Shown here: positions 10,043 through 32,634 of the stretch, piece by piece
Position numbering within the stretch: position 1 is the first letter of the stretch
Layout: each line of letters opens with the position of its first letter
From: Parvularia atlantis
Lineage: Eukaryota
Direction: 5' to 3'
NCBI GenBank assembly: GCA_943704415.1
Contig: CALSCO010000868.1
Location: 1-32,634 of the forward strand
Length of the DNA: 32,634 nucleotides
Position numbers and translations under genes: made by a program
The notes under the pieces: model-generated
Seen by the model: only the letters and a program-made list of their open reading frames with translations
Told to the model about the DNA's origin: nothing
Database searches by the model: none

Positions 10043-13000
10043 ATGCGGCTGGCCCCGCTCGTGTTCGTCGCCCTCCTGGGTGCGGCAGCGGCGGCCACCT
10101 CGGCGAGCGCGCAGGTGTGCACGTCGCAGGCCCAGCCGATCAGCGTCGTCGTGCCCGCAGGCTTCGTGAACCGTGCGCGCATCACTCGACTCGCGGCTCG
10201 CGGCTCACCGGCTCACCCGTGCCCGCGCGCGCGTGCACGCAGAGGGCTTCCAGACGGCCGTCGCGGGCCAGGCGATGCCCGCGTCGTCCACGTGCACCTT
10301 CGCCTTCTCCTTCGCCAGCACGCTCCCGTCCAGCGCCAGCCCCGAGCCGTACCCGCTGCTCGTCAACTTTGACTTCAACGGCGGCGCGACCAACTTTGGC
10401 GCGAGCTACGCCATCTACGACACGTCGACGCAGGCCACGCTCACCTCGGCCAACCTGCTGGTGCGCGCCCTCTGGGGGAAGAGGGGGGGGGAATTATTTC
10501 CTGAACCAACGCGCGCGGATACGCAGGGCACCTTCTCGGGCTCGACGTTCACGGTCAACACGAATGGCCCCAAGGCGCGCTACACCGGCCCCCCGGCCAA
10601 CGCGCAGTACACGACCACGTGGAACGGCGCGGACCTGCGCCTGCGCGCCATCTCGTTCGCCGTCGTCGTGACCTCGGGCGCGACGCCCCTCCCCGGCTTC
10701 CAGACGCTCGTGCAGATCGCGTCGCACGTGAGCGGCTACGACCTCGACAACGACGGCTACACCTGGCCCAGCTACGACTGCTGCGAGACCCAGCGCAACG
10801 ACACCGCGCTGACGGGCTACCCGGGCTGCTTCTACCCATCGCAGGTCAACATTGGCGCGTTTGAGATCGGCGGCAACGGCGTGGTCGACGCCGGCGCGGG
10901 CGCGAGCTGCACCGCGCGCTCGGGCGCGAGCAACAGCCTCACAAACGACGTGAGCGAGAGCCAGACGTGCTCGTTCGCCTCGGACGCGTGCAACGCCTAC
11001 TCGAGCTCGGGCCTGACCGGCGCCAACTGCCCGATCTACACCGGCACGCGCCTGCTCCAGGCGATGGACATCTGCCAGTTCAACCGCCCCTACACCGTCC
11101 CGCCGGCCCAGAGCGCGACCAGCCTGACGAACCAGTGGTCCGTCACCTCGTCCTCGCTCACCCTCGCCGACGGCACCTCGGCCTCGCGCGGCACGGTCAG
11201 CTACGTCGTCTACTCGGGCTATTACGGCTGCTACTGGTCCACGGCCACGGTCAACTGCGCCGGCCGGAGCAGCAACGCCAACTACTACGGCTTTGCCGAC
11301 CAGTCGGCCGTGCTCACGCCGGCCATGCTTGGCCAGACGGCCTTCTTCGCGGGCAACGTGATCGTGGGCGACACCATGGCCGTGCTCTCGACCGGCTTTG
11401 CGGCGTCGCACTCGGGCGCGTACTCGCTCGGCGGGTGCCTCACGTCGCGTTCGTCGGCCCTGCCCTGGTACAACGCCAAATGCAACTCGTACTACCCCAT
11501 CACGGCCAACGTGCCCTCGTCGTACCTGAGCAAGCACAACAACGTGCTCGAGACCTCGGGCGGGTGCAACACGGGCTCGGCCAGCGTGTACGACTCGATC
11601 ATGCTCACGGCCGTCATCACCGCCCCGACCAACGCGCTCTCGTTCAGCTACAACCTGCGTTTCCTCTCGCAAGAGTTCCCGTACTGGGTCTGCACCATCT
11701 ACAACGACTTTTTCCTCGCGCTCATGTCGTCCGACGACCCGCGCTACGGCACACCCGGCGTCGGCAACAGCCCCATCCCCGCCGACGGCAACATTGCCCG
11801 CGCGCCCTCGGGCGCGAGCACGGTCCCGCTCACGATCAACTACGACGCGTTCTTCACCGTGTGCCAGGGCAACCAGCGCAACAGCAACTACAACATCGTC
11901 GGTGCTGCCTGCGTCACCTCCACCTACAGCCAGCTCGTCAGCACCGGTGCGTCCCATTGGCATTGCGGGTTGGTGCTTGCTTGGCTGTTTGGTGGCACGC
12001 GCCCCTCTTGCTCGCCCCTGCCCTCCGCCCCGCCCTCGCACACACACACACACTCACCCCCCTCGTCCGCACAGGGTTCAACTTTGTGGACACCGAGCGG
12101 CCGTCTTGGACGTCGACGTCGGTCAACTTCAACGCGGGCGCGTCGTCGCAGATGCTGACCAACACGGTCAACGTAATCCCCAACAGCCAGTTCACCGTGC
12201 GCTTCCTCATCTTTGACGTGAGCGACTTCCAGTTCCAGAGCACGGTCGTGCTCGACGGCTTCCAGTGGAACGCCCTGCCCGTGCCCGCCGGCGGCTCTCT
12301 CGGCTTCCTCGACCAGTGCCCGACCGACCCGCTCAAGACCGCCCCGGGCATCTGCGGCTGCAACGTCGCCGACACCGACTCGGACGGCGACGGCGTGGCC
12401 AACTGCAAGGACGCGTGCCCGTTTGACAGCACCAAGACCACCTCGGTCGGCCTGTGCGGCTGCGGCGTGAGCGACGTCAACTATCTCGGAGCCGACCCGG
12501 CCTGCGCCACGACCATGCAGTGCTGTGCCACCGGCGGCTACCTCGGCGGCCGGCTCGCCTGGCAGCAGAGCGTCAGCAACGCCCGCGCCGACGAGATGCA
12601 GATCCTGGCCCAGCAGACCCTCGCCTCGGGCGCGTTCTGCGCCGGCTCCAACACGCCCACGGCCTTTGCGCGCTGCTCGACCGTGTCCCTCGCCGGCCAG
12701 ACGGCCGTCTACCCGTCCGTGGGCTCGGTCCTGCCCTCGCACTTCCTCAACTACGGCCTGCTCTGCCCGAGCGCGGTCACGGCCACCCCGGCCACGCCCT
12801 GCCCGGCCAACAGCCACGACGCCATCGTCGCCCTCGCCGCCACGGGCGCGTGGGTCGCCGCCAGCTCGGCCACGGCCTACCAGGGCTCGTACATCTACAT
12901 CAGTGGGCCCACCGCCGGCGCGTCCTACATCGTCAGCCTGCCCGCGGGTATGAGCGGCACGCTCTACATCTCGACCTACGCCACCAAGCCCACCGTCGCC

Positions 13001-16000
13001 CAGACGTTTGCGCGCATGACCGCCACCGTCACGTTCAACGGCGGTGCGTCCTCGGCCACGGTCAACTTTGTCCCGACCGGCCTCGGCTGGCGCGTCCTCG
13101 GCGCCTGGCAGTTCCTGGGCACACCCGCTGTCGAGCGCGTCGTCTTCACCACGGTCGACACGGGCGCGAGCTTCCTGCTCATGCTCAACGCCCTCCGCTT
13201 CACCTCGTACGACCCCGCGTGCGACCTCATGGACGCCACGGCCGCCCTCGGCGCCGCCCAGACTCTCACCTACTACACCTACCTGCCCGGCGGCACCGGC
13301 GCGCGCTTCGAGGCCGCCCCGCTCTCGGGCACGTGCACGCTCGACCTCTACGTCAACGCCAACGTCGACGTGAGCACAACGGCCTTCGTCTACCGCGATC
13401 TGGCCTCGGCCCGCCCCGCTACCGTCGCCAACGCCGCCGTCAACGTCGTCGCGGCCGCCGGCGGCCAAACTTTCGCCGTGCTCGCCGTCGTGGCCACGGG
13501 TTCGTGCACGCCCGAGATCCGCCGCTCGGTGCTCGTGCCCGCGACGGTCGTCAGCGTCAACGTAGCCGACAGCTACGTCGTTGCCCAGGCCTCGACCACC
13601 GTGCACTTCCCCGCCCGCGCCTGCGTCGCCAATCCGGCGCCCTACACCGTCGCGTTCGAGGGCCTCAGCCGCGACACGGGCACGGGCCTGCGCGGCCGCA
13701 GCTACCGCGTCAGCGCCTCGGTCGCCGCGCCCTACACCGCTGTCAACGCCAACGGGCGCTCGCCCGCGCTCGCCCTCCCGCCGCTCCTGCGCGTGCCCTC
13801 GGGCGTCGCGCTCAGCTTCCGCGGCTGGGGCGGCTCGGCCGTGGGCGGGTCGCTTTCGCAGGCGAGCGCGAGCGCGCTTAGTGCCAAGTTCTACCCGCAG
13901 CTGCCCGTTGCCACAGCCGGCGCGCCCGCTTCGAGCTCCTTCTCGGGCTCGTACTCGTTCGGCTACACGTACAACCTGCCCGCGCTCGGCGCCGACTACT
14001 ACCTAGCCTCGGCCGTCGTGACCGACAGCGGCGCCGTGAGCACGCACGACCTCGTCCTGCGCGTGCTCACGCCTGTTGGCGGCAACGTCAACCCGACCGT
14101 TACCATCGGCAGCCCCGTCAATCCACTCTTTCTCAACTGCCCCAATAGCTTCACCGTGACGGGCACGGGCGGCGGCAGCAATGCGGTCTACCTCGAGTAC
14201 GTGCCCCTGCCGAGCACGTGGGCCACGGGCGTGAGCACGGCCACGGCCTCAACCGCGACGACGGCCACGGCCACGATCAGCTTCACGCCGGTCGAGGCCA
14301 CCGCGCTCGCGCTGCTCTATGGCGCGTACGACCTCAAGAACGGCACGGCCTACGCCTCGACTGTGCTCACGCCCACCGCGCGCTCGTGCCCACTCAACAA
14401 CGGCGTGCAGTGCAACAACCGCGGCACGTGCACCTGCGCCGGCACGTGCCAGTGCAACGCGCGCTGGTCGGGCAACGCCTGCCAGACCTACGCCAACACC
14501 GCGCCCACCGTCAGCCCGAGTGCGTTCACGATCAACCAAAACTCGGGCCAGGGCACGTATCAGCTCGTGGCGAGCGACGCCGAGGGCGACGCCGTCACGT
14601 TCTCCAACCTCGTCGGCAGCCAGTTCCACGGCACGATCGCGCTCTCGGCCGCGGGCCTGCTCACGTTCACGCCCACGACCAACTACTTCTCGCCCACGGG
14701 CGCGCCCGACACGATCCAGGTCACCCTGACCGACAACGGTGTCGTGCCGGCCAGCGCCACCTACACCATCACGATCACGATCCAGAAGGTCTACGTGCGC
14801 CCGACCGTGCCCAACTTTGCCGCAACGGTGCAGGAAAACTGCGCGGCGACGTCGTGGAACCTCCTGAGCACGATCACCAACCCCAACGGCTACGCGCTCA
14901 CGTTCTCCCTCCCCGGCACGACCGGCAGCAAGGGCACGGCGTCGTTCGCGGGCTCGATGCTCACGTACGCCTGCGCCAACCTCCAGTACGGTGTCGACAC
15001 GATCCCCTTCCAGGTCAACGACGGCCAGGGCCAGGGCCCGACCGGTGCCAACATCGTCATGACCGTCACGTTTGTGCACCAGGCCCCGACCGTCGCCAGC
15101 TTCACCGTCAACACGGACGAGGACACGCCCGTCTCGCGCACGCTGCAAAGCAACAACATCGACGGTGCCCCGGCCGTGCACCAGATCCTCAGCCAGCCCG
15201 CCCAGGGCACCGTCGTCCTCACCAATGCCGCCACCGGCGCCTTCACCTACACCCCGCAGCAGTACAAGCCCGGCACGTACACGTTCACGTACAACCTGCT
15301 CGAGACGGGCGACGTGCCCGGCCAGCCCGGCACCGCGCGCCTCACGTCCAACACGGGCACCGTCACGCTCGTCGTCGCCCACGTCAACCACGCGCCCACC
15401 GCCCAGGCCGTCGCCATCCAGGGCCTCGAGAACGCGCCGTCAATCGCCGGCACCTACGTCGGCTCGGACAACGATGTCGGCGACACGCTCTCGTACGCCT
15501 ACGTCGCCGGCAGCCTCGCGCCAGCCGGCGCCGGCTCGGTCGTCGCCGGCAGCGGCGCCGCGTTCTCATTTGTGCCCGCGGCCAACTGGTTCGGCACGGC
15601 CACGTTCACCTACCGCGTCACCGACAACGGCGGCCTCTCGGGCACGGCCACGGTCACCGTGACCGTGCTTTTTGTAAACGTCGCGCCCATCGTCACGCTC
15701 AACGCGGTCACGGTCAACCAGAACGCGGGCACGGGCACGTACTCCCCGCTCTGGTCCAGCATCAACTTTGGGCCGAACGCGGCCGTGCTCAGCTTGCTCT
15801 CGGCCAGCGTCGCGGTCATGTCGGACCCGGCGGGCGTGTTTGCGTCGGCGCCCTCGCTCAGCAACGCGGGCGTGCTGTCGTACTCGGTCAAGCCTAACGT
15901 ATTTGGTGTGGCCACGCTCGCCGTCACCGTGCGCAACAACGGCGGCACAGCCAACGGCGGCGTCGACTCGTCCACGACCCAGACCACGTTCACCGTGCGC

Positions 16001-19000
16001 TTCGTCAACCAGGCGCCCTCGTTCATGTCTGTTGCCGTCGCGTCCGTGCCCGAGGACACGCCCGGCCAGGTCGCGCGCACCTTCGCCACCAACATCTCGC
16101 CCGGCCCCGCCGGCGAGAGCGTGCAGACAGTCGCGTTCAACGTCGTCACGGGCGTGTGCACGCCCATCGCCGCCGGCACGCTCTTTGCCGCCGCGCCGGT
16201 CTTTGGCGCGGACGGCATCGTGCGCTTCACGCTCAACCCGCTCTACTACAGCACGTGCACGTACACGATTAACCTGCAGGACAACGGCGGCACGGCCAAC
16301 GGCGGCGTCGACACGTCGGCCAACGCGGTCGTGACCATCACCGTCACGCCCGTGCCGCACGCGCCTGCGTTCAATGCCCTCGCCACGACATGGACCGTGC
16401 TCGAGTCGGCCACGGCCGGCAACGCCATTTCGCTCAACTTTGCCAACGGCATCTTCACGGGCTCGTCGCAGGAGACCGACACGATGGCCTTTGTCGTGTC
16501 GTCGAGCGGCTACACCGGCGCGGCGTACTTTGCCACCGGCCCATTCACGGCCACGCCCACGGTCGCGCCGGCCACGCCGGGCAGCACGGGTGTGCTCCAG
16601 GCGACGCAGCGCCAGTACGCCAACGGCAACGTCACGCTCTCTGTCATCCTGACCAAGCCCAACCTCTCGCCCGTGCTCTCCTCGCCCGCGGCCACGCTCA
16701 ACGTGCGCATCGTCCCCGTCAACAACGCGCCCAGCTTCACCCTGGCCACGCCCACGCTCTCGTACTACAACTCGGACGTGACCTCGACCACGACCGTGAC
16801 GGTGGCGACGGGCGCGGTGGCCGGGCCGGCGGACGAGGTCGCGACGCAAACGCTCGCGTTTGTCGTCACGCACGACTGCGAGGGCTCCGCGCCGCTTTTT
16901 GCGCAGCAGCCCACGGTGACGGTGCAGGGCACGGCCGGCGCGCAGACGGGCGTGCTCTCGTTCTCGATCCAGGCCTACCGCAGCACGTACCTGCTCAGCG
17001 GCGGCAGCTGCACGCTCAGCGTCGTCCTGCGCGACAGCGGCGACACGACCGACGGCGGCAGCAACGCCTCGCCCGCCCAGACCATCACGCTCACGATCAC
17101 CCCGGTCAACCAAGCGCCCAGCTTCACCGCGCCGAGCACGCTCACCTACACCCAGAGCGGCTCGGGCAACATCGTCGTGAGCACGCCCTGGGCCTCGGCC
17201 ATCTCGGCCGGCCCGTACGAGACCTGGCAGATAAGCTCTCTCGCGTTCACGATCACGACCGTGTCGGGCGCGTCGCTCTTTGCCGAGCTGCCGACGGTGT
17301 CGCCCGCGGGCGTGATTGCGTTCCAAATCAAGCCGCTCGTCTCGGGCTCGGCCACGTTCTCGGTCGTGCTCCAGGACGGCTACGGCACGGCGCACAGCGG
17401 CCAGGACACGTCGGCCCCGTTTAGCCTCGTCATCTCCGTGCCCAGCGCGACCTTCCCCGTCTCGTTCCAGATGGTCTCGGCCGTGACCGTGCCGATGAAC
17501 TCGGCCACGTACACCAACGCCGCATTCCTCACCGGCATCGACGCCTCATCGCTCCTCCTCGCGCAGTCGCTCACGGCCTCGGTTCAAGTCACGTCGGGCG
17601 CGAGCCTGCTCACGGGCACGCCCCAGGTCACGATCAGTCAGGCCAGCTTTGACGGCAACGGCGCCGGCGGCGTCGCGGCCGTCTCGTTCACGCCCGCGCC
17701 CGGCGTGACCTCGTTCGGCACCGTCACCTTCTCCGTCACGCTCTCGTCGTCCTCGTCCACCTCGGCCCCGCGCTCGGCCACCGTCACGATCACCTACGTC
17801 AATCAGGCGCCGACTTTTGCCATCCCGCAGCCGGCGCAGGTCGTGCAGGAGGACGTGGGCGCGGTGTCAGTGCCGGCCTTTGCCACGAGCATCATCGCGG
17901 CCGCGGGCAACCCCTACGGCACGACCGTGACCTTTGCCGTCACCTGCACCAACGCCGCCACGCTCTTCTCCGCCGGCGGCGCCCCGGCCATCTCGCCCCA
18001 GGGCACGCTCACGTTCACGTCGGCCGTGTCGGAGGTGGGCACGAGCGCATGCTCGGCCGTCGCCACCAACAACGGCAGCCCCGCGCTGTCGTCTGCCTCG
18101 GTGCCGTTCACGATCGAGTTCACCTACTGGAACCACGTGCCATCGTTCACCGCCGGCGCCGACCAGACGGTGCTGCAGAACGCGGGCACGGTCACGGTCG
18201 CGGGCTGGGCCACAGGCATCCTGCCCGGCCCGCCCAACGAGTACGCGCAGACGGTCGGCTTTGCGCTGACGGGCTTTGATGCGGCGCTGTTTGAGGTCGC
18301 GCCGACCCTGAACGTCGTCGGCACGTCGTACCCCAAGACGGCCACGCTTTCGTTCCGCGGCAAGACCAACGTCTACGGCAGCACCACGGTCACGGTCGTG
18401 CTGAGCGACTCGGAGGGCGCGTCGACCGCGGCGCGCTCGCTCGGCATCACGATCACGTTTGTCAACCAGGCGCCCTCGTTCGCGCTCTCGGCCAGCGCCA
18501 TCAGCGTGCCCGAGTACAGCGGCGCGCAGACCGTGCCGGGCTTTGTGCTCAACGCCGTGGCCGGCCCGGACAACGCGCTCGAGAACGCGCAGACGCTCAC
18601 CTGGATCGTCACGGCCAGCAACGCCGCGCTCTTCGCCAAGGATAGCAACAACCAGCCGCTGCTGGCGATCGTCGGCGGCGCGCTCGAGTACACGCTGGCC
18701 TCCGGCGTCTTTGGCACGACCACGCTCACCGTCACCGCGACCGACAACGGCGGCACGGCCAACGGCGGCCAAAACAGCTTCGCGCTCAGCTCGATCTCGC
18801 TCACTGTGACCTTTGTCAACCGCCCGCCCACGTTCACGTGCGGCGCGGCCACGGTGACGGTGCTGCAAAACTCGGGCGCCAACGCCGTCGCGGGCTGGGC
18901 TTCGGCCATCTCGCCGGGCGACCCAAGCGAGACCGCGACGCAGACCGTGACGTTCAACGTGACCGTGGACGCGGCCTCGCCCATGCCCGTCAGCGGCTTG

Positions 19001-22000
19001 GCCGTCGCGGGCGGCTCGGGCACGCTCAGCTTTGCCACGGTGACGCAGATGTGGGGCTCGGTCGCCGTGACGGTGCAGGCGTGTGACAGCCTCGGCCTAT
19101 GCTCGGTGCAGACGTGCCCCGCGACGCTGCAGGTGCTTTTCGTCAACCAGGCGCCGACGTTCACCCGCGCGCTCGCGACCGTGTCGGTGCTGGAGAACAG
19201 CGGTGCGAGCACGATCGCGGGCGTGTTCACGGGCATGTCGGCCGGCCCGGGCTACAACGAGGCCGCGACGCAGACGCTCGCGTTTGACATCACGGTCGTG
19301 TCGGCCTCGCCGTCCAACCTGCTCGTGGGCACGCCGACGGCCAACGCGGCCTCGGGCGCGCTCTCGCTGCAGCCGCGGGCCAACCTCTTTGGCAATGCGA
19401 CCCTGCGCGTGACCTTGCGCGACGACGGCGGCACGACCAACGGCGGCGTGGACACATCGGCGACGGCGACGGTGCTCGTGCAGGTGCTCTGGGTCAACCA
19501 GGCGCCCTCGGCCACGCTGCTGCAGTCGGTCGTGTCGATGCCGGAGAACAGCGGTGCGCAGAGCGTGAGCGGCCTGTGGAGCGCGATCAGCGCCGGCCCA
19601 GACAACGAGGCGTGGCAGACGGTCGCGTTCACCGTGATCGACACAAGCATCGCCAACCTCAACGCGCCGCGCGCACCCTTCACGCTCTTTGCCGTCGCGC
19701 CGGCGATATCGTCCGCGGGCGTGGTTACGTTCCTGACCAACGCGGACGCGTACGGCACGGCCACGCTCACCGTGCGCCTGCGCGACAGCGGCGGCACGGC
19801 CAACGGCGGCGTCGACACGGCGCCCGCGACCTTCACGCTGACGATCGACGTGACGCGCGTCAACCAGGTGCCCCTCGCCGTGAACGACCTCGCGACCACG
19901 CCCGAGAACCAGGTGGCGACGTTCGGCGTGCTGGCCAACGACTACAGTGACTGGGACTTTGACCTGGGCACGTTGACCCTGCGCGTGGCCTACATCGTGT
20001 CGGCGTCGGTGTCGTCGGGCACGGTCGTGACGGTAGCGGGCAACGGTCTGGGCGTGGTCTACACGCCGCGGGCCAACTGGTACGGCGTCGACACGTTCCA
20101 GTACGTCGCGACGGACGGCGCGTGCACGGCGTCGGCCAGCCTGTGCTTCTCGGCGCCGGCGACGGTGACGGTCAACGTGACGCACGTGTTCATCGCGCCC
20201 GTGACGCAGCCCGTCGCGTTCACGGTCGTGGGCGACGGCGTGTACACGTCGGCCGCCACGGCGCTCTTTGTCGCGTCCACACCCAACGCGGGCGACCCAA
20301 TCGCGTTTGCGCTGCAGTCGCAGCCGGCGCACGGCACGGCCTCACTCGTCGGCGGCGTGTTCACGTACACGCCCACGCTCTACTACTGCGGCCCTGACAG
20401 CCTCACGTACAGCGCGTCGTCAGGCCCGGCCGTGGGCAACACAAGCCCGGTCACGATCACCGTCACGTGCATCAACCACGCGCCCACGGCCAGCAACATC
20501 ACGGCGACGATGGACGAGAACACGGTCAGCAGCAGCGGCAAGACCGTCACCCTCGTGCTCTCGGTGGCCGACGTAGATGCGGCCGACCAGGGCCAGCTGA
20601 CGTACTCGTGCGCGGCGCCGGGCTTCGCCAAGGGCCAGTTCAGCCCCGCGGCAGGCGCGACAAGCGCGACGTCGGTCGCGATCGTCTACTCGCCCACGCC
20701 GTACAAGAACGGCGTCGACGCGATGCGCTGCACCGTTTCGGACCCCGCCGGCGCCACGGCGACGTTCTGGGCGATCGTGACTGTGATCGGCCCGGCGTTC
20801 CACAACCCGCACCTCGTCACGCCGCTCGTGCTCTCGGGCTACTCGGACGTGCCGGGCGCGGGCCAGCTGCAGGCGATCGACTACGACGGGCTCAACACGC
20901 TCGCGTACAGCATCCTCACACCCCCGCCGGCCTCGCTCTGCACCGTCAGCCTCAACACGACCACGGGCGCGTTCACCTACGTCTCAGCACGGCTCCAGTT
21001 TGGCCAGTGCAGCTTCACATGGACGGTCGTGACGGCGCAGAGCCTAGGCCCGGACAACGCACCGGGCCTGGTCCAGATCAACATCCAGGCGGTGCAGCAC
21101 AACCCGGTCACGTACGCGAGCACGCACACGGCGTACCAGAACTTTGTGCTCTCGAACCAGCAGCTCAACGTGACCGACCTCGACTCGAACCAGGCGGGCG
21201 CGGGTCTGACGGTGGCGGTCGTGACGAACACGCCCGCGTCGGCCGGCACGGTCGTGATCACCAACGCGGCCACGGGCGTGTTCCAGTTCACGCCGGCGAC
21301 CAACTACTTTGGAACGACCTCGTTCACGTACCGCGCCACGTCCAACTTTGGCATGCAGTCGAGCGTGACGACAGCGACGATCGTTGTGGTGCGCCTGAAC
21401 CAGCCGCCGACGGCGCAGAGCGGCACGGCAACGACGCCGATGAACACGCCCGTGAACGTGCTCCTGCCCTACACCGACATTGACACGCCCCTGGCCAACA
21501 TGACGTTCGCGATCTTGCAGGCGCCCACGTCGGGCACGGCCGCGATCAGCACCAGCGTGGCCCAGACGGCCGTCTACACGCCCGCGAGCAATTGGTACGG
21601 CGTCGACTCGTTCCGCTTCAGCGTGAGCGACGGCCAGTACACGGCCACGGGCACGATCACGGTCAACGTGACCTTTGTGCACTACCCGCCCACGGCGCAG
21701 GACGCGACGTGGACCGTCCCGGCCAACACGGTGTACCAGGACCAGCTCTCGATCGCCTCGTTCCAGTTCCCGCAGACGCTCACGGCCGTGCTCTTTGGCG
21801 CGGGCCCGCAGAACGGCTCGGTCGTGTTCAACGGCGGCACGCCCTTCCTTGTCACATACACGCCGCGCACATCGACCGACCCCAACTACGCCTCGACCGA
21901 CTCGTTCCAGTTCCGCGCGTTTGACGGCACGCTCTACTCGGCCGTGAGCACCGTGCGCATCTCGATCACGCGCTCGCCCTTCCGCGCCCCGACTGCGGCC

Positions 22001-25000
22001 TCGTTTGCCGTCTCGGCGCAGCAGGAGCAGCCGTACGCGTTTGTGCTCCAGGGCGCCGACCCCAACACGCCCGCGCTGCCGCTCACGTACTCGATCGTCG
22101 CCGCGCCAACCCTGGGCACGCTCAGCGGCCTCGGCGCGGGCACGGGCCAGGTCACATACACGGGCGCGAGCAACAAGTGGGGCACCGACACGTTCACGTA
22201 CAAGGTCAGCAACGGCTACTACTCGTCGACCGTGGCCGCGGTCACGGTCAACGTGCTCTACGTCAACAAGCCGCCGCTGGCCGCGTCGCTCTCGTTCACG
22301 ACCAACGAGAACACGGCCCTGTCGGCGCAGCTCTCCGCTACCAACATTAACGGGCCGGGCCCGCTGCGCTACATCCTCACGGTGCCGACAACGTCGGGCA
22401 CGGTCGCGGTCAACGACGTGACGGGCCAGTTTACCTACACGCCCAGCACGTACTTTTACGGCACCGACTCGTTCCAGTACAAGGCCTTTGACGGCGTGGG
22501 CTACTCGACCACGGCGGCCAAGGTGACGATCACGGTCGTCAACGTGCACCAGCCGCCGATCCCGACCAGCGCAAGCATCGTCACGCGCGAGGACGTGCCG
22601 TACACGGGCACGCTCGCGTGCTGGGGCCCGGACTCGACCACGTACCGCTTCTACATCACCGCCAGCCGCGTCCTCGGCTCGGTCACGGTCGACCGCCTGA
22701 CGGGCCGGTACACGTACATGCCGCCGCCGGCCTGGTCGGGCGCGGACGAGTTTGCGTTCACGTGCGACGACACGGTCCTGTCGTCGACTGGCCCGGGCAC
22801 GGTCTCGGTCACTGTCACGCACGTCGACCGCGCGCCCGAGGCGCTGGCGCAGACGGTCAACGGCCAGCAGAACCAGGCCGTCTCGGTCACGCTCACGTCG
22901 TACAACCGCGACAACCTGCCCGTGACCTACACCCTGCTCTCGCTCACGACCGTGCGCGGCGGCACGCTCCAACAGACCAGCGTCGGCTCGCCCGCGCTCG
23001 TCTACACACCCCCGAGCCAGTTCTTTGGCACAGACTCGTTCTCGTTCACGTGCAACTCGGGCTCACTCGCCTCGCCCGCGCCGGCGCTCGTCACGCTCCA
23101 GATCGCCCACGTCAATCAGCCGCCGACGGTGAGCCCGCTCGTGCTCTCGATCGCCGTGAGCACGTCGACCATCGTGGCCGTGCCGTCGTCGGACCCGGAC
23201 CTGGTCTGCTGCGATGACACGCTCATGCTCGCGGCCCTGCCAACCGCGGCCATGGGCAACGTCGCCTTCGTGCCCGACCCGCCCGCGGCGTTCTTGTACA
23301 CGGCGCGCACAACGCCGGGCACCGAGACGCTCACGGTGACGGTGCGCGACCGCGAGGGCCTCACGGCCACGACGACGGTGACGATCTACATCACGGGCGC
23401 GTCGGTCGTGCCGCCGGTGATTTCGGACCTCAAGTGGTTCGGCACGGAGGACCAGCAGCTGCGCGACACGCTCGCCTGGGGCATCGTCCGCGCCACGTCC
23501 AACGTGGTTAGCTACACCGTGTCGGGCCTGGACGGGAGCATTGCTGCGCTCGACGCCTCGACCAATGCCGCGACGGGCTTTGTGGCGCTCAACCTGCGCC
23601 AGTACTACTTTGGCACGTTCTCGTTCAAGTACCAGGTGCGCGACGCCAACAACGCCGTGAGCAATGTCGCGACGGTCACGGTGACGATCGACGAATAGTG
23701 CGTGCTCTTTTTGGGCGGCGACGCTTGACTGACTTTTGTGCGCACGCGCAGCCCGTACGCGCCCACGGCGTACCCGCGCACCGTCACGATCAACCAGGAC
23801 ACGACGGCGTCGTTCACGCTGCAGGCGTCGGACGTGAACGGGCACAACAGCTTTGTCTTCTCGGTCGCCTCGACGGGCAACGCGCAGCAGGCGACGATCA
23901 GCCTCGACTCGGCCAGCGGCGCGTGCACGTTCAAGCCGCCCGCGGGCCGACACGACACGTACGTCTTCTATTACCGTGTGTTTAACGGCTTCACGTTCTC
24001 GGCCCCGGCCGCGGTCACGGTCGTGGTCAACAAGGTGTACGCGGCGCCGGTGGCGCAGTCGGCCACATACGAGGCGCCGCAGAACGCGGCCGTGTCGGGC
24101 GTGCTCCCGTGCAGCCAGGTGGACGGCCTGACGCTGAGCTTCGCCTGGGTCGGCGGCCAGCCGCAGGCGCTGCTGGCGCTGGGTGAGCTCGAGAGCAACC
24201 AGATCGAGGGCACGTTCACGCTCACGCCGACGGGCGCGATCTTTGGCACGTTCACGGCGCAGTTCTACTGCTCGGCGCAGACCCCGGCCGGCAGCACGCT
24301 CACGAGCAACACGGGCACGATCACGGTTGTGCTCACGTACGTCAACAAGCCGCCGACCGCGTTCGACCTGCCGCTGTCGTGGCCGCAGGCGACCTACCTC
24401 AACGCGGCGACCTACTCGGCGCGCGTGACAGCGCTCGACCCGCAGGACGGCGCCAACCTGCGCGCGTTTGTGCAAAACAGCGACCCGAGCTACGGCGCGC
24501 TCTCGTTCGCTTCCGACGGCACGTTTGACTACGCCCCCGCGATCAACTACGTCGGCCAGGACAGCTTCACATTCTACGCGCTCGACGTCGAGGGCCTCCA
24601 GTCCAACGTCGCCACGGTGACGATCACGCTCCTGGCCGTGCGCGTGCCGCCGCTGGCGCGCGTGGTCACAGTCAACGTGGACGAGGACTCGTCGGTCGAG
24701 GGCCAGCTCGAGGGCGTGTCGGCCTACCCAGACAGCGTCACATACACAATCAAGGTCGCGCCCGTGTACGGCACACTCGACCTGCTCGACGCGAGCGCCG
24801 GCACGTTCCGCTACACCCCGCGCGCACTCTACCACGGCAGCGACTTTGCGGCGTACACGGTCACGGACAGCGACGGGTCGACCGTGCTCGAGTCGTCGAT
24901 CGCGTCGGTGGCGATCCAGGTGGCCCACATCAACCACGCGCCGGTCGCGCGCAACTTTAGCATCACCGCGACGGCCGGCGTCAACTACGTGGGCGAGTGG

Positions 25001-25672
25001 GACGGCTCGGACGTGGACGCGGGCGACGTGCTGACGGGCGTGCCTGTGGCGAGCGCGACGACGGCGGGCACGGCTTCGACCGAGAGCGGCCTCGCGTTCA
25101 CGTACCTGCACCCGGCCACAGCCGCGGCGACGACAGACGTGGTCGCTTTCTACGTGCAGGACCAGACCGGCACGACGTCGGACGTGGCCTACATGACCGT
25201 GACGGTGCTGGCGGCGCCGCCGGTCGCGCCCACGATGGGCGAGAGCAACAACAACACGACCGGCACCAACATTGCCGGCGCGGCCGTGGGCGCCGTGCTC
25301 GCGGCGCTCGTGCTCGTGGCCCTGGCCGCGCTCGCCTGGTACCGCTACCGCGAGGCCTACGCCGTGTCGAGCTTCCAGAAGGAGGCGATGGTCGCCGCGG
25401 CCAACATGTCCAACTCGAACCCGCTCTACGTCGGCATGACCAACGAGTTTGTGTCGCCGCTCTACCAGGACCCGTCGAGCAACCGCGACCACATCTGGGA
25501 GCGCCAGCCGTCGGCAGGCACGGTCCGCCAGGCGCCCACGGGCACAGTCGAGGACCTCTACCGCGATGCGCCCACGCACGGCGGCGCCGCCCGCGGCTCG
25601 CAAGGCTTTGTCGGCGCGCGCTCGCTCCAGCAAGAGACGTTCTTAAACCCGCTCTTTGCGAGCGACGACTGA
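10043..25672 (+). CDS. Giant type I membrane adhesion receptor (~5,103 aa, 5 exons) with bacterial-type Ig/cadherin-like repeats and an integrin-beta/Sib-like NPxY tail
   Basis: Signal peptide MRLAPLVFVALLGAAAAATSASA. Introns 10173-10242, 10461-10526, 11947-12074 and 23698-23751 join four separately called ORFs into 15,312 nt of continuous frame. Modules: choice-of-anchor-L-like, TSP3-like, golvesin-like, EGF-like, about 30-35 Ig-like repeats, a TM helix at 25271-25339, and a tail with NPLY, SPLY and NPLF. Confidence 0.88.
14490..25210 (+). repeat. Tandem array of roughly 30-35 diverged ~95-125-aa Ig-like (Big_9/tandem-95/cadherin-like) protein repeats
   Basis: Recurring VNQAPxF/VNHAPTA linkers, YTPxxNWYGxDxFxY cores and D[ND]GGTANGGVD loops. 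Confidence 0.85.
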
Positions 25673-28535: not shown

Positions 28536-29331
28536 ATGTGCGGTCTGCACTGGACGCTGCGCCTGCTGCGGGACGACACGGACGACGCGGACGACGCGGA
28601 CGACGCGGACGACGCGGACGACGCAGACGACGCAGACGTCGACGTGGAGATGGACCGGCTGCTGCGCCGCCGCGGCCCCGACAGCGCCGCCGTCTGCACC
28701 ATCCGCACGCCCGGCGCGCGCCTCGTCTGTCGCTGCGCCGTGCTCGGCCTCCGCGGGCGCGCGCCCGAGCCGCAGCCGCTGCGCGCCATCGACGGCGACG
28801 GCGACGACGACGGCGACGCGCTCGCGTGGAACGGCGAGGTGCTGGACGGGCCGCTGCTGCCGCGCGACGCCGACGCCAACGACGGCCGCGCCGTGCTCGA
28901 CGCGCTGCGGGCCGCGGACGAAGGCGACGACGAGGGCGGCGTGGCGCGCGTCGTCGCTGCGCTGCGCGGGCCGTGGGCGATGGCCTGGTGGGACGCACGC
29001 CGCGCGCGCCTGTGGTGGGGCCGCGACGCACTCGGCCGCCGCAGCCTGCTCTGGCGCGTCGACGGCGCTGGGCGTGTCCTGCACCTCGCCTCGGTCGGCG
29101 CCGCAGTGCGCGACAATGACGACGGGGACGACGACGGCGAGGGCGACGAGCGCGATCAGCCGGCGGACGTGTGGCGCGAGGTGCCCGCGCACGGCCTGTT
29201 CTACGTCGACGTGCGCGCCGGGATCGACCGCCTCGACAACGCCGTGCGCGTCGTGCGATGGGGCAGCGCCGCCCTGCCGCGGCCGTTCGGCGCCGTCTGC
29301 GTCGACGTGGACGATGCGCCCCCGGGCAACA

Positions 29332-29379
<48 letters not shown>

Positions 29380-30327
29380 TGGACGGTGGCGGAGTGGTGG
29401 TGCTCGACACGTTGGAGCGGCTGCTGGACGACGCCGTGCGCCGCCGCGTGCGCCTCGTCGCGCCTGGCACGCGTGTCGCTGTGCTGTTCTCGGGCGGACT
29501 CGACTCGACCGTGCTCGCGCGCCTTGCCAGCCGACACCTCGCCTCTGACGCGCCGCTCGACCTGCTCAACGTCGCCTTTGCGGACGACGGCCGCTTTGAT
29601 GCCGTGCCGGACCGCGTCACAGCCCGCGCGGCCGTTGCCGAGCTGCGCGCGCTCGACCCGGGGCGCGACTGGCGGCTCGTCACCATCGACGTGACAGGTG
29701 CCGAGGTTGAGGCGGCGCGCGGGCACCTGCGCCGGCTGATCGCGCCGTGCCGCACCGTGCTCGACCTGTCGATCGCCACGGCGCTGTGGTTCGCCGCGCG
29801 CGGCCACGGACGCGTGGACGGCAACGACGCGCCCTACACCAGTCCCGCGCGCGTCGTGCTCTCGGGCATCGGCGCCGACGAGCAGCTTGCGGGCTACAGC
29901 CGGCACTGGGCGCGCTTCCACTCGCACGGCTGGGCCGGCCTGGTGCACGAGGTGCGGCTCGACGTGGAGCGGATCGCGTCGCGCAACCTCGGTGCGCCGC
30001 CGGTCGTCATTCGTTCTCTGGCTGCCTGATGTTGTGTTTTGCGCAGGCCGCGACGACCGCGTCATCTCGGACCACAGCCGCGAGGTCCGCGCGCCGTTCC
30101 TCGACGAGGCCCTGGTCGACTCTCTCAGCGCGCTGCCCGTCTGGCGCAAGGCCGACCTGCGCCTCGCCCGCGGCGTCGGCGACAAGCGTTTGCTGCGGCA
30201 GCTCGCGCTCCGGCTGGGGCTCAACGGCACGGCGGCGGCGCCCAAGCGCGCGATCCAGTTTGGCTCGCGCATCGCCAAGCTCGCCGGGGCACCGCGAGGA
30301 GCGAGGGGCTCGGACGCCGTGTCATGA
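28536..30327 (+). CDS. ASNSD1: Asparagine synthetase domain-containing protein 1 (ASNSD1/YML096W-like), 2 exons
   Basis: Ntn-type start MCGL, then [48 protein letters not shown], spliced RNL/GRDDR (intron 29992-30046) and [10 protein letters not shown]. Confidence 0.93.
28572..28634 (+). repeat. Seven copies of a 9-bp GACGACRCR unit encoding (DDA)n in ASNSD1
   Basis: GACGACACG, then GACGACGCG x4, then GACGACGCA x2. Confidence 0.92.
29334..29378 (+). repeat. (GAC)15 microsatellite encoding poly-Asp in ASNSD1
   Basis: Direct read of the sequence. Confidence 0.95.
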
Positions 30328-30360
30328 CCTCTCGCGCACACAGAGCAATGCGCAACGCAC

Positions 30361-31290
30361 TCACAGCGCCTGCGCAGCCGCCACGCGCTCGCGCCACGCC
30401 ACGAGCTCGTCCGGCGACGCGCTGAGCAGGCGAGGTCAGCCGAGCCAAAGTGCATGCGAGCGCACACGCACCTGCGCGCCGAGTAGCACTGGAAGACGCG
30501 CTCGCGCTGGTCGCTGTTGCGCGCGCGCGTGCCGTTGATGAGCCGGCCGACGACGCGCATGGGCGTGCCAAGCGGGGCAAGCGGGCTGCGCAGGCGGTAG
30601 TCCATTTCGTAGAAGACGCAGGGCAGGACGGCGAGCGCGGCGGCGGGCGTGCCGAGCGACTCGACCAAGGTGAAGCGGCGGCCTACGTTGTCGCCGCCGC
30701 CGTGGTTGCGCTGGACCGAGTGCAGGTGCCCTAGCCGGCGCAGTGAGAATCCACAGAGCGCGCAAGGCACGACGGCGCACCAAAGACCTCGACGGCGGCG
30801 ACAGTCTCGGGCGGGAGCAGCGCGTAGGCGAGGGCCGTGTCGGGCTCGGCGAGGACGCGGGCGATGGTGCGCGGCACGACACGGCCGTCGCGCGCATAGT
30901 TGACGACGTCGACGAGCACGGCTGAGCGCGGTGGCGCGCTGGCGGCGGTGGCGGCGGCGCGCGGCGGCTGCTGGCGGCGGACGGGCGCGGGCGTCGGCGT
31001 CGGCGGCTGCTGCGGCGCGAGGGCGCTGAGGTGCCTGGCCGAGAAGGCGCCGACGTGCGGGCGCAGCTGCCGCATGGGAGCGTGGCGCGTGAGTCGTGGC
31101 GCGGTCGGTGCGGGGCGGCGCGCACCGGCGTCGTGCGGGTCGCGTCGAGCGCGAGGTCGCCGCCGGACGTCTGGGTGAGGACGCGGTTGAGCGGGCGCGG
31201 CGTGCCGTGCGGCGGGCGGGGCGGGCGGCCGTCGTCGAGCGCGTCGTCGGCACCGTCGTCGGCGCGGCGCGGGAGGGCGACGGGGCGCAT
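30361..31290 (-). CDS. SPATA22: SPATA22-like OB-fold protein (putative meiotic ssDNA-binding partner of MEIOB), 4 exons
   Basis: Introns 31067-31125, 30731-30780 and 30422-30471 give VEVFGHLHS...RRFTL...LPCVFYEMDYRL...MRVVGRL...FQCYSARSASPDE. This parallels the SPATA22 C-terminal pattern (FEV...LDS, LPCVFYEIDR, RCVG, FxCVSVRPAS). The N-terminus is low-complexity. Confidence 0.72.
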
Positions 31291-31294
31291 GGGG

Positions 31295-32158
31295 AAACAG
31301 CCTGATCTTGCGCTCGCGCTGGCGTTCCTGCGGATAGACGACCCAATAGGAGCGGTCGTCGCGCACCACATGATCGGCCGCGAAGACCAGCCTTCCGGCC
31401 GCAATGTCGTAGGCGAACAGCTCCGGTATCGCCATCGCGATGCCATGGCCGCGCAGCGCCGCCTGAATGCTCATCGCCTGCATCTGCAGCGCCATGGTCG
31501 GTCGCCCGTCGGGCTTCGGCGCATCGATGCCGAGATCGGCAAACCAGCTCTTCCATGACAGCTCCGTCGGGCTCAACCGCGGCGCCCGCAGCAAATCCTC
31601 CGGCGTGCGCAGTTGCAGTTGCTCGCGCAATTCCGGGGTGCAGAGCGGCGCGTAATGGCAGTCGAAGAGCTTCTCCGCGACGAGGCCGGGCCATTCGCCC
31701 AGCCCGTAGCGCAGCGCGAGATCGACGGAATCCGTCGCGAAATCCACCAGATGCTCGGAGGTTCCCACCCGCACCTCGAACTGCGGGTTCTCGACCTGGA
31801 ACTGGGCCAGCCGCGGCGAGAGCCAGGTGATCGCCATGGTCTGCAGCGAGGAGATCGTCAGGACGGTCTGGTTCTCCTCGCAGAGATTGCGGAACACCGT
31901 GCCGATATCGGATAGCGCCTTCGTCACCGGCCCGGCGAGCCGCTGGCCGATGGCGGTCAGCACGACCTGGCGCGGCTGTCGCACGAACAGGGCCGCGCCG
32001 ACCCGATCCTCCAGCAGCCGGATCTGGTAGCTCACCGCAGCCTGCGTCATGCCGAGCTCTTCGGCCGCGCGGGTGAAGTTCTGGTGACGGGCCGCCGCCT
32101 CGAAGACGCGGACCGCGGCCAGGGGCGGCAACTTCGGCGGCGGCGGATGCGTCGGCAT
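31295..32158 (-). CDS. Bacterial LysR-family regulator (GcvA-like), C-terminally truncated at the junction with eukaryotic DNA
   Basis: HTH LPPLAAVRVFEAAARHQNFTRAAEELGMTQAAVSYQIRLLE and substrate domain WLSPRLAQF, VDLALRYGLGEWPGL, SYWVVYP. No introns. Similarity stops at KIRLF (288 aa), and the expected final RDWL-type helix and stop are absent. Confidence 0.93.
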
Positions 32159-32165
32159 GCCGAAG

Positions 32166-32182
32166 CATAAGCTGTCTTTATG
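32166..32182. promoter_or_regulatory. LysR-type binding box (CATAA-N7-TTATG, T-N11-A)
   Basis: A perfect inverted repeat CATAAgctgtctTTATG lies 8 bp upstream of the LysR start, in the gap between the divergent LysR and DUF1127 genes. Confidence 0.8.
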
Positions 32183-32279
32183 ACAGATAGCAATCTTCCG
32201 CTTTGTCGTGCGGGCCGCTTTCGCTCAGATTCGACCTCACGACAGCGGGCCCGGAGGCCCGCGCTTCCGAGGATAGACC

Positions 32280-32507
32280 ATGACCTGCGTTTCGCAGACG
32301 GCTCCGCTGGCCTCGCCCGGCGGCATCACCTTTCCGCGCGCCTGGCTGGCGCTCTGGCGGCGCTATCGGGACGAGGCGCGGGTTCGGCGCCATCTCGCGA
32401 CGCTGGACGAGCGCGCGCTCCGCGATCTCGGCCTGTCGCGCGAGGCGGTCGATCCGCCACGCCCCTGCGACCCCGCCGGGCTATGGCTCAACCGCGTTCC
32501 GGGATAG
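32280..32507 (+). CDS. DUF1127 (YjiS-like) small protein
   Basis: 75 aa with the signature WRRYRDEARVRRHLATLDERALRDLGLSRE. It is divergent from a GcvA-like LysR gene, a common proteobacterial arrangement. Confidence 0.88.
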   Translation: MTCVSQTAPLASPGGITFPRAWLALWRRYRDEARVRRHLATLDERALRDLGLSREAVDPPRPCDPAGLWLNRVPG

Positions 32508-32520
32508 GCGCGCCGGCCCC

Positions 32521-32563
32521 TTCGCCGCAAAAGCGGTTTCCACTTTGGCCGAACATGCTCTAG
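32521..32563 (-). repeat. Half copy of an alphaproteobacterial intergenic palindromic repeat (CIR/BRU-RS-like)
   Basis: The minus strand reads CTAGAGCATGTTCGGCCAAAGTGGAAACCGCTTTTGCG, matching the remembered CTAGAGC...AAGTGGAAACCGGTTT arm typical of Hyphomicrobiales/Caulobacter repeats. Confidence 0.6.
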
Positions 32564-32600
32564 ACGACGGCTGACGAACCTCATCAGATCGCAAGCCGCC

Positions 32601-32634
32601 ATGACCACCTACAAGTCCGATTTCCTGCGCGTGC
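32601..32634 (+). CDS. tyrS: Probable start of tyrosine--tRNA ligase (cut by the window end)
   Basis: MTTYKSDFLRV resembles the MxxFKSDFLxxL N-terminus of Hyphomicrobiales TyrS. Only 11 codons are visible. Confidence 0.6.
   Translation, partial: MTTYKSDFLRV

What the first reader, a model, noticed from the sequence alone, without database searches (positions are those of the whole stretch)
31285..32634. Abrupt eukaryote-to-alphaproteobacterium junction
Seen: intron-rich genes end at the SPATA22-like ATG (31290). Only 4 bp away begins an intronless bacterial block: LysR, its operator, DUF1127, a repeat arm and probable tyrS. The LysR loses its last helix and stop exactly at the junction, and the eukaryotic gene has no room for a promoter or 5' UTR. 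No transposon ends or target duplication are visible. Inference: most likely a chimeric join with a co-cultured or symbiotic Hyphomicrobiales genome. A very recent insertion cannot be excluded from sequence alone.
Basis: partly seen in the sequence, partly recalled or inferred. Interest (0 to 1): 0.7.

Follow-up and report, generated by a model that had tools for sequence, protein, structure and literature searches.

The report
False eukaryote–Bosea assembly join
The apparent jump from eukaryote genes into bacterial genes is most likely an assembly error: public sequencing data show a deeply covered eukaryote sequence and a thinly covered Bosea bacterium each carrying on separately past the join, so it is an ordinary artefact and not gene transfer.

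Summary
The junction is in the window but very likely not in any genome. Window 31294-32634 is an ordinary piece of Bosea chromosome (LysR/GcvA-like regulator, DUF1127 gene, native repeat arm, start of tyrS). It is colinear with 16 Bosea-group loci at 75-83% nucleotide identity. Everything to its left is an intron-containing, GC-rich eukaryote, and the composition change-point is at 31284. In run X1, which holds both sides without a mismatch, the eukaryote contig (159.6x) runs to 31295 and continues with other letters. A separate 5.92x contig starts matching at 31294 and continues into the missing LysR tail. Three more runs show the same intact LysR continuation, and none of the 7 records laid on the junction bridges it. 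The two true sequences share only 2 bases, so a chimeric library molecule kept by the assembler is the likely cause (inferred). Contigs cannot exclude a rare true insertion (about 2%). The SPATA22 label was not confirmed. Verdict: contamination chimera; trim the contig at 31295.

The parts
31294..31295 (.). Chimeric join: two bases (GA) shared by the eukaryote sequence, which matches up to 31295, and the Bosea sequence, which matches from 31294
   Evidence: X1 eukaryote contig matches to 31295 and then has 9 other letters; Bosea contigs of X1, X2 and X4 match from 31294 with 242, 87 and 94 other letters before
31295..32158 (-). Bosea LysR-type regulator (GcvA-like), codons 1-288, cut about 29 codons before its natural stop
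   Evidence: Pfam PF00126/PF03466; 248/275 identical to the L001 protein; NF008352 GcvA 283.1 bits against cut-off 288, full-length L001 orthologue 293; tail lengths
32166..32182 (.). Imperfect dyad with T-N11-A spacing between the divergent lysR and DUF1127 genes; probable LysR binding site (inferred)
   Evidence: core columns conserved in 8 of 8 rows; binding not tested
32280..32507 (+). DUF1127 small-protein gene, 75 aa, intact
   Evidence: PF06568 E 1.1e-9, 38.2 bits against cut-off 23.3; orthologous ORF in Bosea loci
32529..32563 (+). Arm of a dispersed Bosea intergenic repeat; native to this locus, not an insertion end
   Evidence: same place in all 7 Bosea rows; 4-11 related copies in each of 4 Bosea genomes, 0 for the reversed control
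32601..32634 (+). First 11 codons of tyrS, cut by the window end
   Evidence: aligns with the start of the gene scored TIGR00234 tyrS in L003
30361..31290 (-). Eukaryote gene beside the join; 4-exon model 31290-31126, 31066-30781, 30730-30472, 30421-30361, 256 codons; true 5' end not in the window; family unconfirmed
   Evidence: GT..AG introns of 59, 50 and 50 nt with branch-point-like motif and an open frame; covered by the 159.6x X1 contig; no significant homologue
28536..30327 (+). Eukaryote asparagine-synthetase-domain gene (ASNSD1-like; name recalled) with intron 29992-30046
   Evidence: PF00733 and GATase domains; a contig of run X3 (RNA status a guess) skips the 55-nt GT..AG intron (table 5)

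Best explanation
This is most likely an assembly chimera, in which the end of a eukaryote contig was fused to 1.34 kb of low-abundance contaminating Bosea DNA, probably through a single chimeric library molecule. Shown: both sides exist unjoined in run X1 at depths differing 27-fold, each with its own continuation, and the Bosea continuation is the missing LysR tail. Inferred: the true sequences overlap by only 2 bases, too few for a shared-repeat (k-mer) misjoin, so a ligation, PCR or amplification chimera supplied the link. The assembler probably kept that link because the true eukaryote path ends 9 bases further on in G-rich sequence and the true Bosea path is a short low-depth stretch, so both could be clipped as tips. 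The truncated LysR, the long read-through frame and the missing promoter are by-products with no biological function.
For:: X1 record of 1949 nt at 159.6x matches 29500-31295 with 0 differences; X1 record of 878 nt at 5.92x matches 31294-31929 with 0 differences; another of 298 nt at 6.8x matches 32030-32327; 0 of 7 records laid on 31200-31460 bridge the junction and no joint is listed. In 4 of 4 runs a bacterial record leaves the window at 31294-31296. Read by hand on the minus strand, these loose ends encode the R-D-W-led tail that follows residue 288 in 15 of 16 Bosea-group loci. A 16-base motif from that loose end lies at L001 4827-4842, directly after the aligned part, and nowhere in the window with up to 2 mismatches. 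L081, found with the junction-side pattern, carries a whole 316-aa LysR. The block keeps Bosea gene order, operator and repeat and Bosea composition. It runs to the window end with no return to eukaryote DNA.
Against: Only contigs were available, not raw reads; contigs drop rare variants, so absence of a bridging record does not prove absence of bridging molecules. X1 may be the source of the assembly (not independent), or another preparation of it. At 90% likeness one X1 record gave a joint 31011-31304 that spans the junction on paper (table 5). It has only 21 letters on its shorter side and unknown letters between, which the tool flags as typical of unrelated sequence. could not re-test it because 31011 lies outside that stretch. 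Table 8 was cut (98 pieces not shown). The chimeric molecule itself was not seen.
Confidence: 0.96

Rival explanations
1. A very recent true insertion of Bosea chromosomal DNA into the eukaryote chromosome by end-joining with 2-base microhomology, present in a small minority of nuclei or only in the preparation that was assembled.
For: A 2-base overlap without transposon ends is what end-joining repair can leave (established knowledge). Contigs cannot show rare alleles (tool note).
Against: The Bosea contig at 5.92x continues into its own intact LysR tail, which accounts for the bacterial-side depth. The eukaryote contig at 159.6x passes the site without the insert. No second junction back to eukaryote DNA in the window. 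A fixed insertion would give about 160x, or about 80x if on one of two homologues.
Confidence: 0.02
2. In-silico misjoin without any chimeric molecule: scaffolding or gap-closing software abutted two unrelated contig ends without N padding.
For: The overlap is only 2 bases, and the eukaryote contig of X1 ends 9 bases after the join, near where an independent assembly might stop.
Against: Both true sequences continue past the join in X1 (9 and 242 letters), so both ends would have had to be trimmed to these points. This is a variant of the artefact reading, not a rival to it; its probability is counted inside the 0.96.
Confidence: 0.2
3. The Bosea strain is an intimate symbiont of the eukaryote and not a casual contaminant (bears on the source of the DNA, not on the join).
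For: Its DNA is in the same run as the eukaryote with 0 mismatches over 636 and 298 bases.
Against: Near-identical DNA lies in runs of other studies without the eukaryote side: X2 (3 differences in 550), X5 (0 in 346 and 362), X4. Bosea is listed among genera found in blank controls (PMC4228153, Table 1 passage). The block shows no reduction in GC or gene content.
Confidence: 0.1

Closest known systems
Bacterial contamination and chimeric joins in draft eukaryote genomes mistaken for horizontal gene transfer (tardigrade case, as described in PMC8862208, passages read)
   Same: Bacterial DNA from the sample inside a eukaryote assembly, told apart by read depth and k-mer composition
   Different: Here the foreign DNA is fused to a host contig end at base resolution, at similar GC (0.70 against 0.67), so whole-contig GC/coverage filters would miss it
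Bosea tyrS - DUF1127 - LysR (GcvA-like) locus, e.g. L001 Bosea sp. RAF48, L003 B. thiooxidans
   Same: Gene order, divergent arrangement, dyad, repeat arm; 80-90% protein and 75-83% DNA identity
   Different: The window copy stops at LysR codon 288; the strain is not one of the 16 matched loci, though near-identical DNA is in runs X1, X2, X4, X5
Genuine bacterium-to-eukaryote insertions (e.g. Wolbachia inserts, yeast operon capture; recalled, the latter seen only as a reference title in PMC8862208)
   Same: Bacterial genes adjacent to eukaryote genes in one sequence
   Different: Those have host-level depth, two junctions and spanning reads; here depth is 27-fold lower, there is one junction at a sequence end, and no record spans it

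Membership tests
Assembly chimera with contaminant DNA | Depth step at the join | tested here: met
   159.6x against 5.92x in X1; depths are per-contig means
Assembly chimera with contaminant DNA | Both partners found unjoined with their own continuations | tested here: met
   loose ends at 31294 and 31295 in X1; LysR tail in 4 of 4 runs
Assembly chimera with contaminant DNA | No or only singleton raw reads across the join | not testable with these tools
   all listed runs are kept as contigs; 0 of 7 records bridge
True horizontal transfer / insertion | Foreign DNA at host depth | tested here: not met
   0.037 of host depth in X1
True horizontal transfer / insertion | Records spanning the junction | tested here: not met
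   none among 7 records in 4 runs; contigs cannot show rare alleles
True horizontal transfer / insertion | Return to host sequence on the far side | tested here: inconclusive
   window ends inside tyrS; no genome held; X2 record runs over the window end as Bosea-like DNA
True horizontal transfer / insertion | Amelioration, introns or mobile-element ends | tested here: not met
   Bosea composition; no junction-anchored repeats among those listed; repeat arm is native
LysR-type regulator (PF00126 + PF03466) | N-terminal HTH_1 and LysR substrate domain above curated cut-offs | tested here: met
   77.7 and 93.8 bits
GcvA subfamily (NF008352) | Score above cut-off 288 | tested here: inconclusive
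   truncated copy 283.1; full-length L001 orthologue 293
SPATA22 | Significant similarity of the C-terminal domain to named SPATA22 proteins | tested here: inconclusive
   exon 3 alone (87-98 aa) gave no hit in Pfam, PDB, two word-indexed searches or phmmer over 1.84 billion proteins, and no informative Atlas cluster; the resemblance is recalled only and the query was short

The most novel reading that the evidence does not exclude
A bacterium-to-eukaryote transfer caught in the act: Bosea chromosomal DNA end-joined into the 5' end of a eukaryote gene in a few percent or fewer of nuclei, too rare to survive contig simplification but picked up by the original assembly.
Probability: 0.02. Interest if true: 0.6.

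Novelty: not a real feature. Interest (0 to 1): 0.06.

Why it matters
As an artefact it matters only for curation. The last 1339 bases should be removed, the adjoining gene flagged as 5'-incomplete, and the read-through LysR frame ignored. Other contig ends of this assembly deserve screening, because GC filters will not separate a 67%-GC Bosea from a 70%-GC host. If the 2% reading were true, it would be a rare direct view of the first step of horizontal transfer into a eukaryote.

Tried and rejected
No whole genome is held, so other contig ends could not be screened. An exact 57-base junction-side pattern found 0 metagenome stretches; a 29-base one found 1 (L081), a different Bosea strain at 78% with intact LysR. 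The eukaryote side 29000-31293 has only short low-complexity matches (38-100 bases) in 5 of 5 Bosea genomes, so it is not Bosea DNA. The repeat arm was rejected as an insertion end. Rfam at gathering threshold finds only a tRNA at 364-436. X3 (same organism label, other study) has no depth from 31075 to 32634; a hole in contigs proves nothing and is not used. Eukaryote lineage: the ABHD13-like exon's best named hits are early-diverging fungi at about 50% identity, too distant to place it; left unresolved. Searches for the SPATA22 identity were all blank. No other bacterial-like kilobase among 31 bins from 1 to 31000. Earlier-findings look-ups returned nothing. Paper searches were seen as listings with abstract starts only; PMC12501420 gave one reference-list passage and was not used. 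Only 6 of the 21 listed runs were laid (X1, X2, X3, X4, X5, X7).

Full report
Observation. The window is a GC-rich eukaryote from base 1 to about 31295: short GT..AG introns, one of them (29992-30046) skipped by a contig of run X3, a tRNA, and typical eukaryote genes. From 31294 to the end it is bacterial. An order-4 Markov comparison, trained on window 1-27000 and on Bosea DNA outside the homologous block, is negative in all 17 held-out bins up to 31250 and positive in all 6 after, with the change-point at 31284. None of 31 one-kilobase bins from 1 to 31000 looks bacterial.

Identity of the bacterial block. A scan of GTDB genomes with the LysR returned 80 loci. The top 16 are Bosea or unnamed relatives at 80-90% protein identity, and the other 64 fall to 44-51%. 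These 16 align with window 31294/31296 onwards at 75-83% nucleotide identity (14 in one piece to the window end, 2 in two pieces), and no locus matches further left. The alignment of 8 sequences shows the same lysR start, dyad, DUF1127 gene, repeat arm and tyrS start (domains). The repeat arm has 4-11 relatives in each of 4 Bosea genomes, so it is native and not an insertion end. After residue 288 the orthologues continue for 29 residues in 13 of 16 loci (31 and 23 in two, one not parsed), always starting R-D-W. The window instead reads on into eukaryote DNA.

The decisive test. Run X1 holds 0.85 of the sampled words of 29500-32634. One X1 contig (1949 nt, 159.6x) matches 29500-31295 without a difference and then continues with 9 other letters before ending. 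Another (878 nt, 5.92x) matches 31294-31929 without a difference and carries 242 other letters before 31294. X2 and X4, from other studies, show the same 30-letter loose end at 31294, and X7 a variant of it at 31296. Read by hand on the minus strand, this loose end is the missing LysR tail; a 16-base piece of it lies in L001 immediately after the aligned part and nowhere in the window. None of the 7 records laid on 31200-31460 bridges the junction.

Results against, or limits. The runs are contigs, which drop rare variants. X1 may be the assembly's own source. One X1 joint 31011-31304 at 90% likeness spans the junction formally, but with only 21 letters on its short side and unknown letters between, and it was not re-tested. 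Table 8 was cut by 98 pieces.

Mechanism. Shown: the partners exist apart; they share only GA at 31294-31295, with mismatches on both sides (compared by hand). Inferred: 2 bases cannot cause a de Bruijn repeat misjoin, so a chimeric library molecule, or gap-closing software, made the link. It likely survived because the true eukaryote path stops 9 bases on in G-rich sequence (the window also begins with a G run) and the true Bosea path is short and shallow. Whether the X1 contig ends there by a coverage gap or by a branch is not known. The 14 true bases upstream of the ATG at 31290 contain no in-frame stop, so the gene may begin further 5'.

Source of the Bosea DNA. It was in the same library at low depth. 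Near-identical DNA appears at 3-4x in runs of other studies (X2, X4, X5), and Bosea is among genera found in blank controls (PMC4228153, Table 1 passage). Culture, water or reagent contamination all fit; symbiosis is not shown.

Comparison with what is known. This is the familiar contamination-as-transfer trap (PMC8862208, passages), here at a contig end and at matched GC. It fails the tests for true transfer: host depth, spanning records, amelioration. The SPATA22 name of the neighbouring gene rests on recalled resemblance; a 4-exon 256-codon model is open, but all searches with its third exon were blank. No supplements were read; none bears on the verdict.

Verdict. Not a real feature; chimera 0.96, rare true insertion about 0.02; interest 0.06.

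Noticed in passing
window 10044-25672 (+): A giant eukaryote gene of roughly 5,000 codons with few introns: signal-peptide-like start, an EGF-like domain (just under cut-off), at least 19 Big_9 / bacterial cadherin-like repeats (Pfam E 2.8e-115 and 6.6e-33), and a hydrophobic, probably membrane-spanning, stretch near the C-terminus. It has host composition. Probably a surface adhesin; the origin of the bacterial-type Ig repeats is worth a look, more so than the junction.
   Followed up: partly
window 23697-23752 (+): The long frame of the giant gene ends in TAG at 23696-23698 and a new frame resumes by 23729. An intron here would need a non-standard or shifted donor, or the gene is interrupted; not resolved.
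   Followed up: no
window about 7050-9512 (-): Intron-containing GH92 alpha-mannosidase-family gene (PF07971, E 6.4e-77), a family common in bacteria and fungi (recalled).
   Followed up: partly
window 1742-3893 (+): Intron-containing secreted CocE/NonD-like hydrolase gene (PepX_C PF08530, E 1.8e-26); mostly a bacterial family (recalled), so a candidate old transfer.
   Followed up: partly
window 364-436 (-): tRNA gene (RF00005, 66 bits); anticodon GTT (Asn) read by eye.
   Followed up: partly
window 5102-5589 (+) and 5713-6698 (-): V-ATPase subunit F-like gene (by eye) and an ABHD13/bem46-like gene whose best named hits are early-diverging fungi at about 50% identity; the host may be a poorly sampled lineage.
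   Followed up: partly
L001 about 3490-3590: This Bosea genome carries a 97-base longer, two-armed form of the intergenic repeat between DUF1127 and tyrS, where the window and six other rows have one arm.
   Followed up: no
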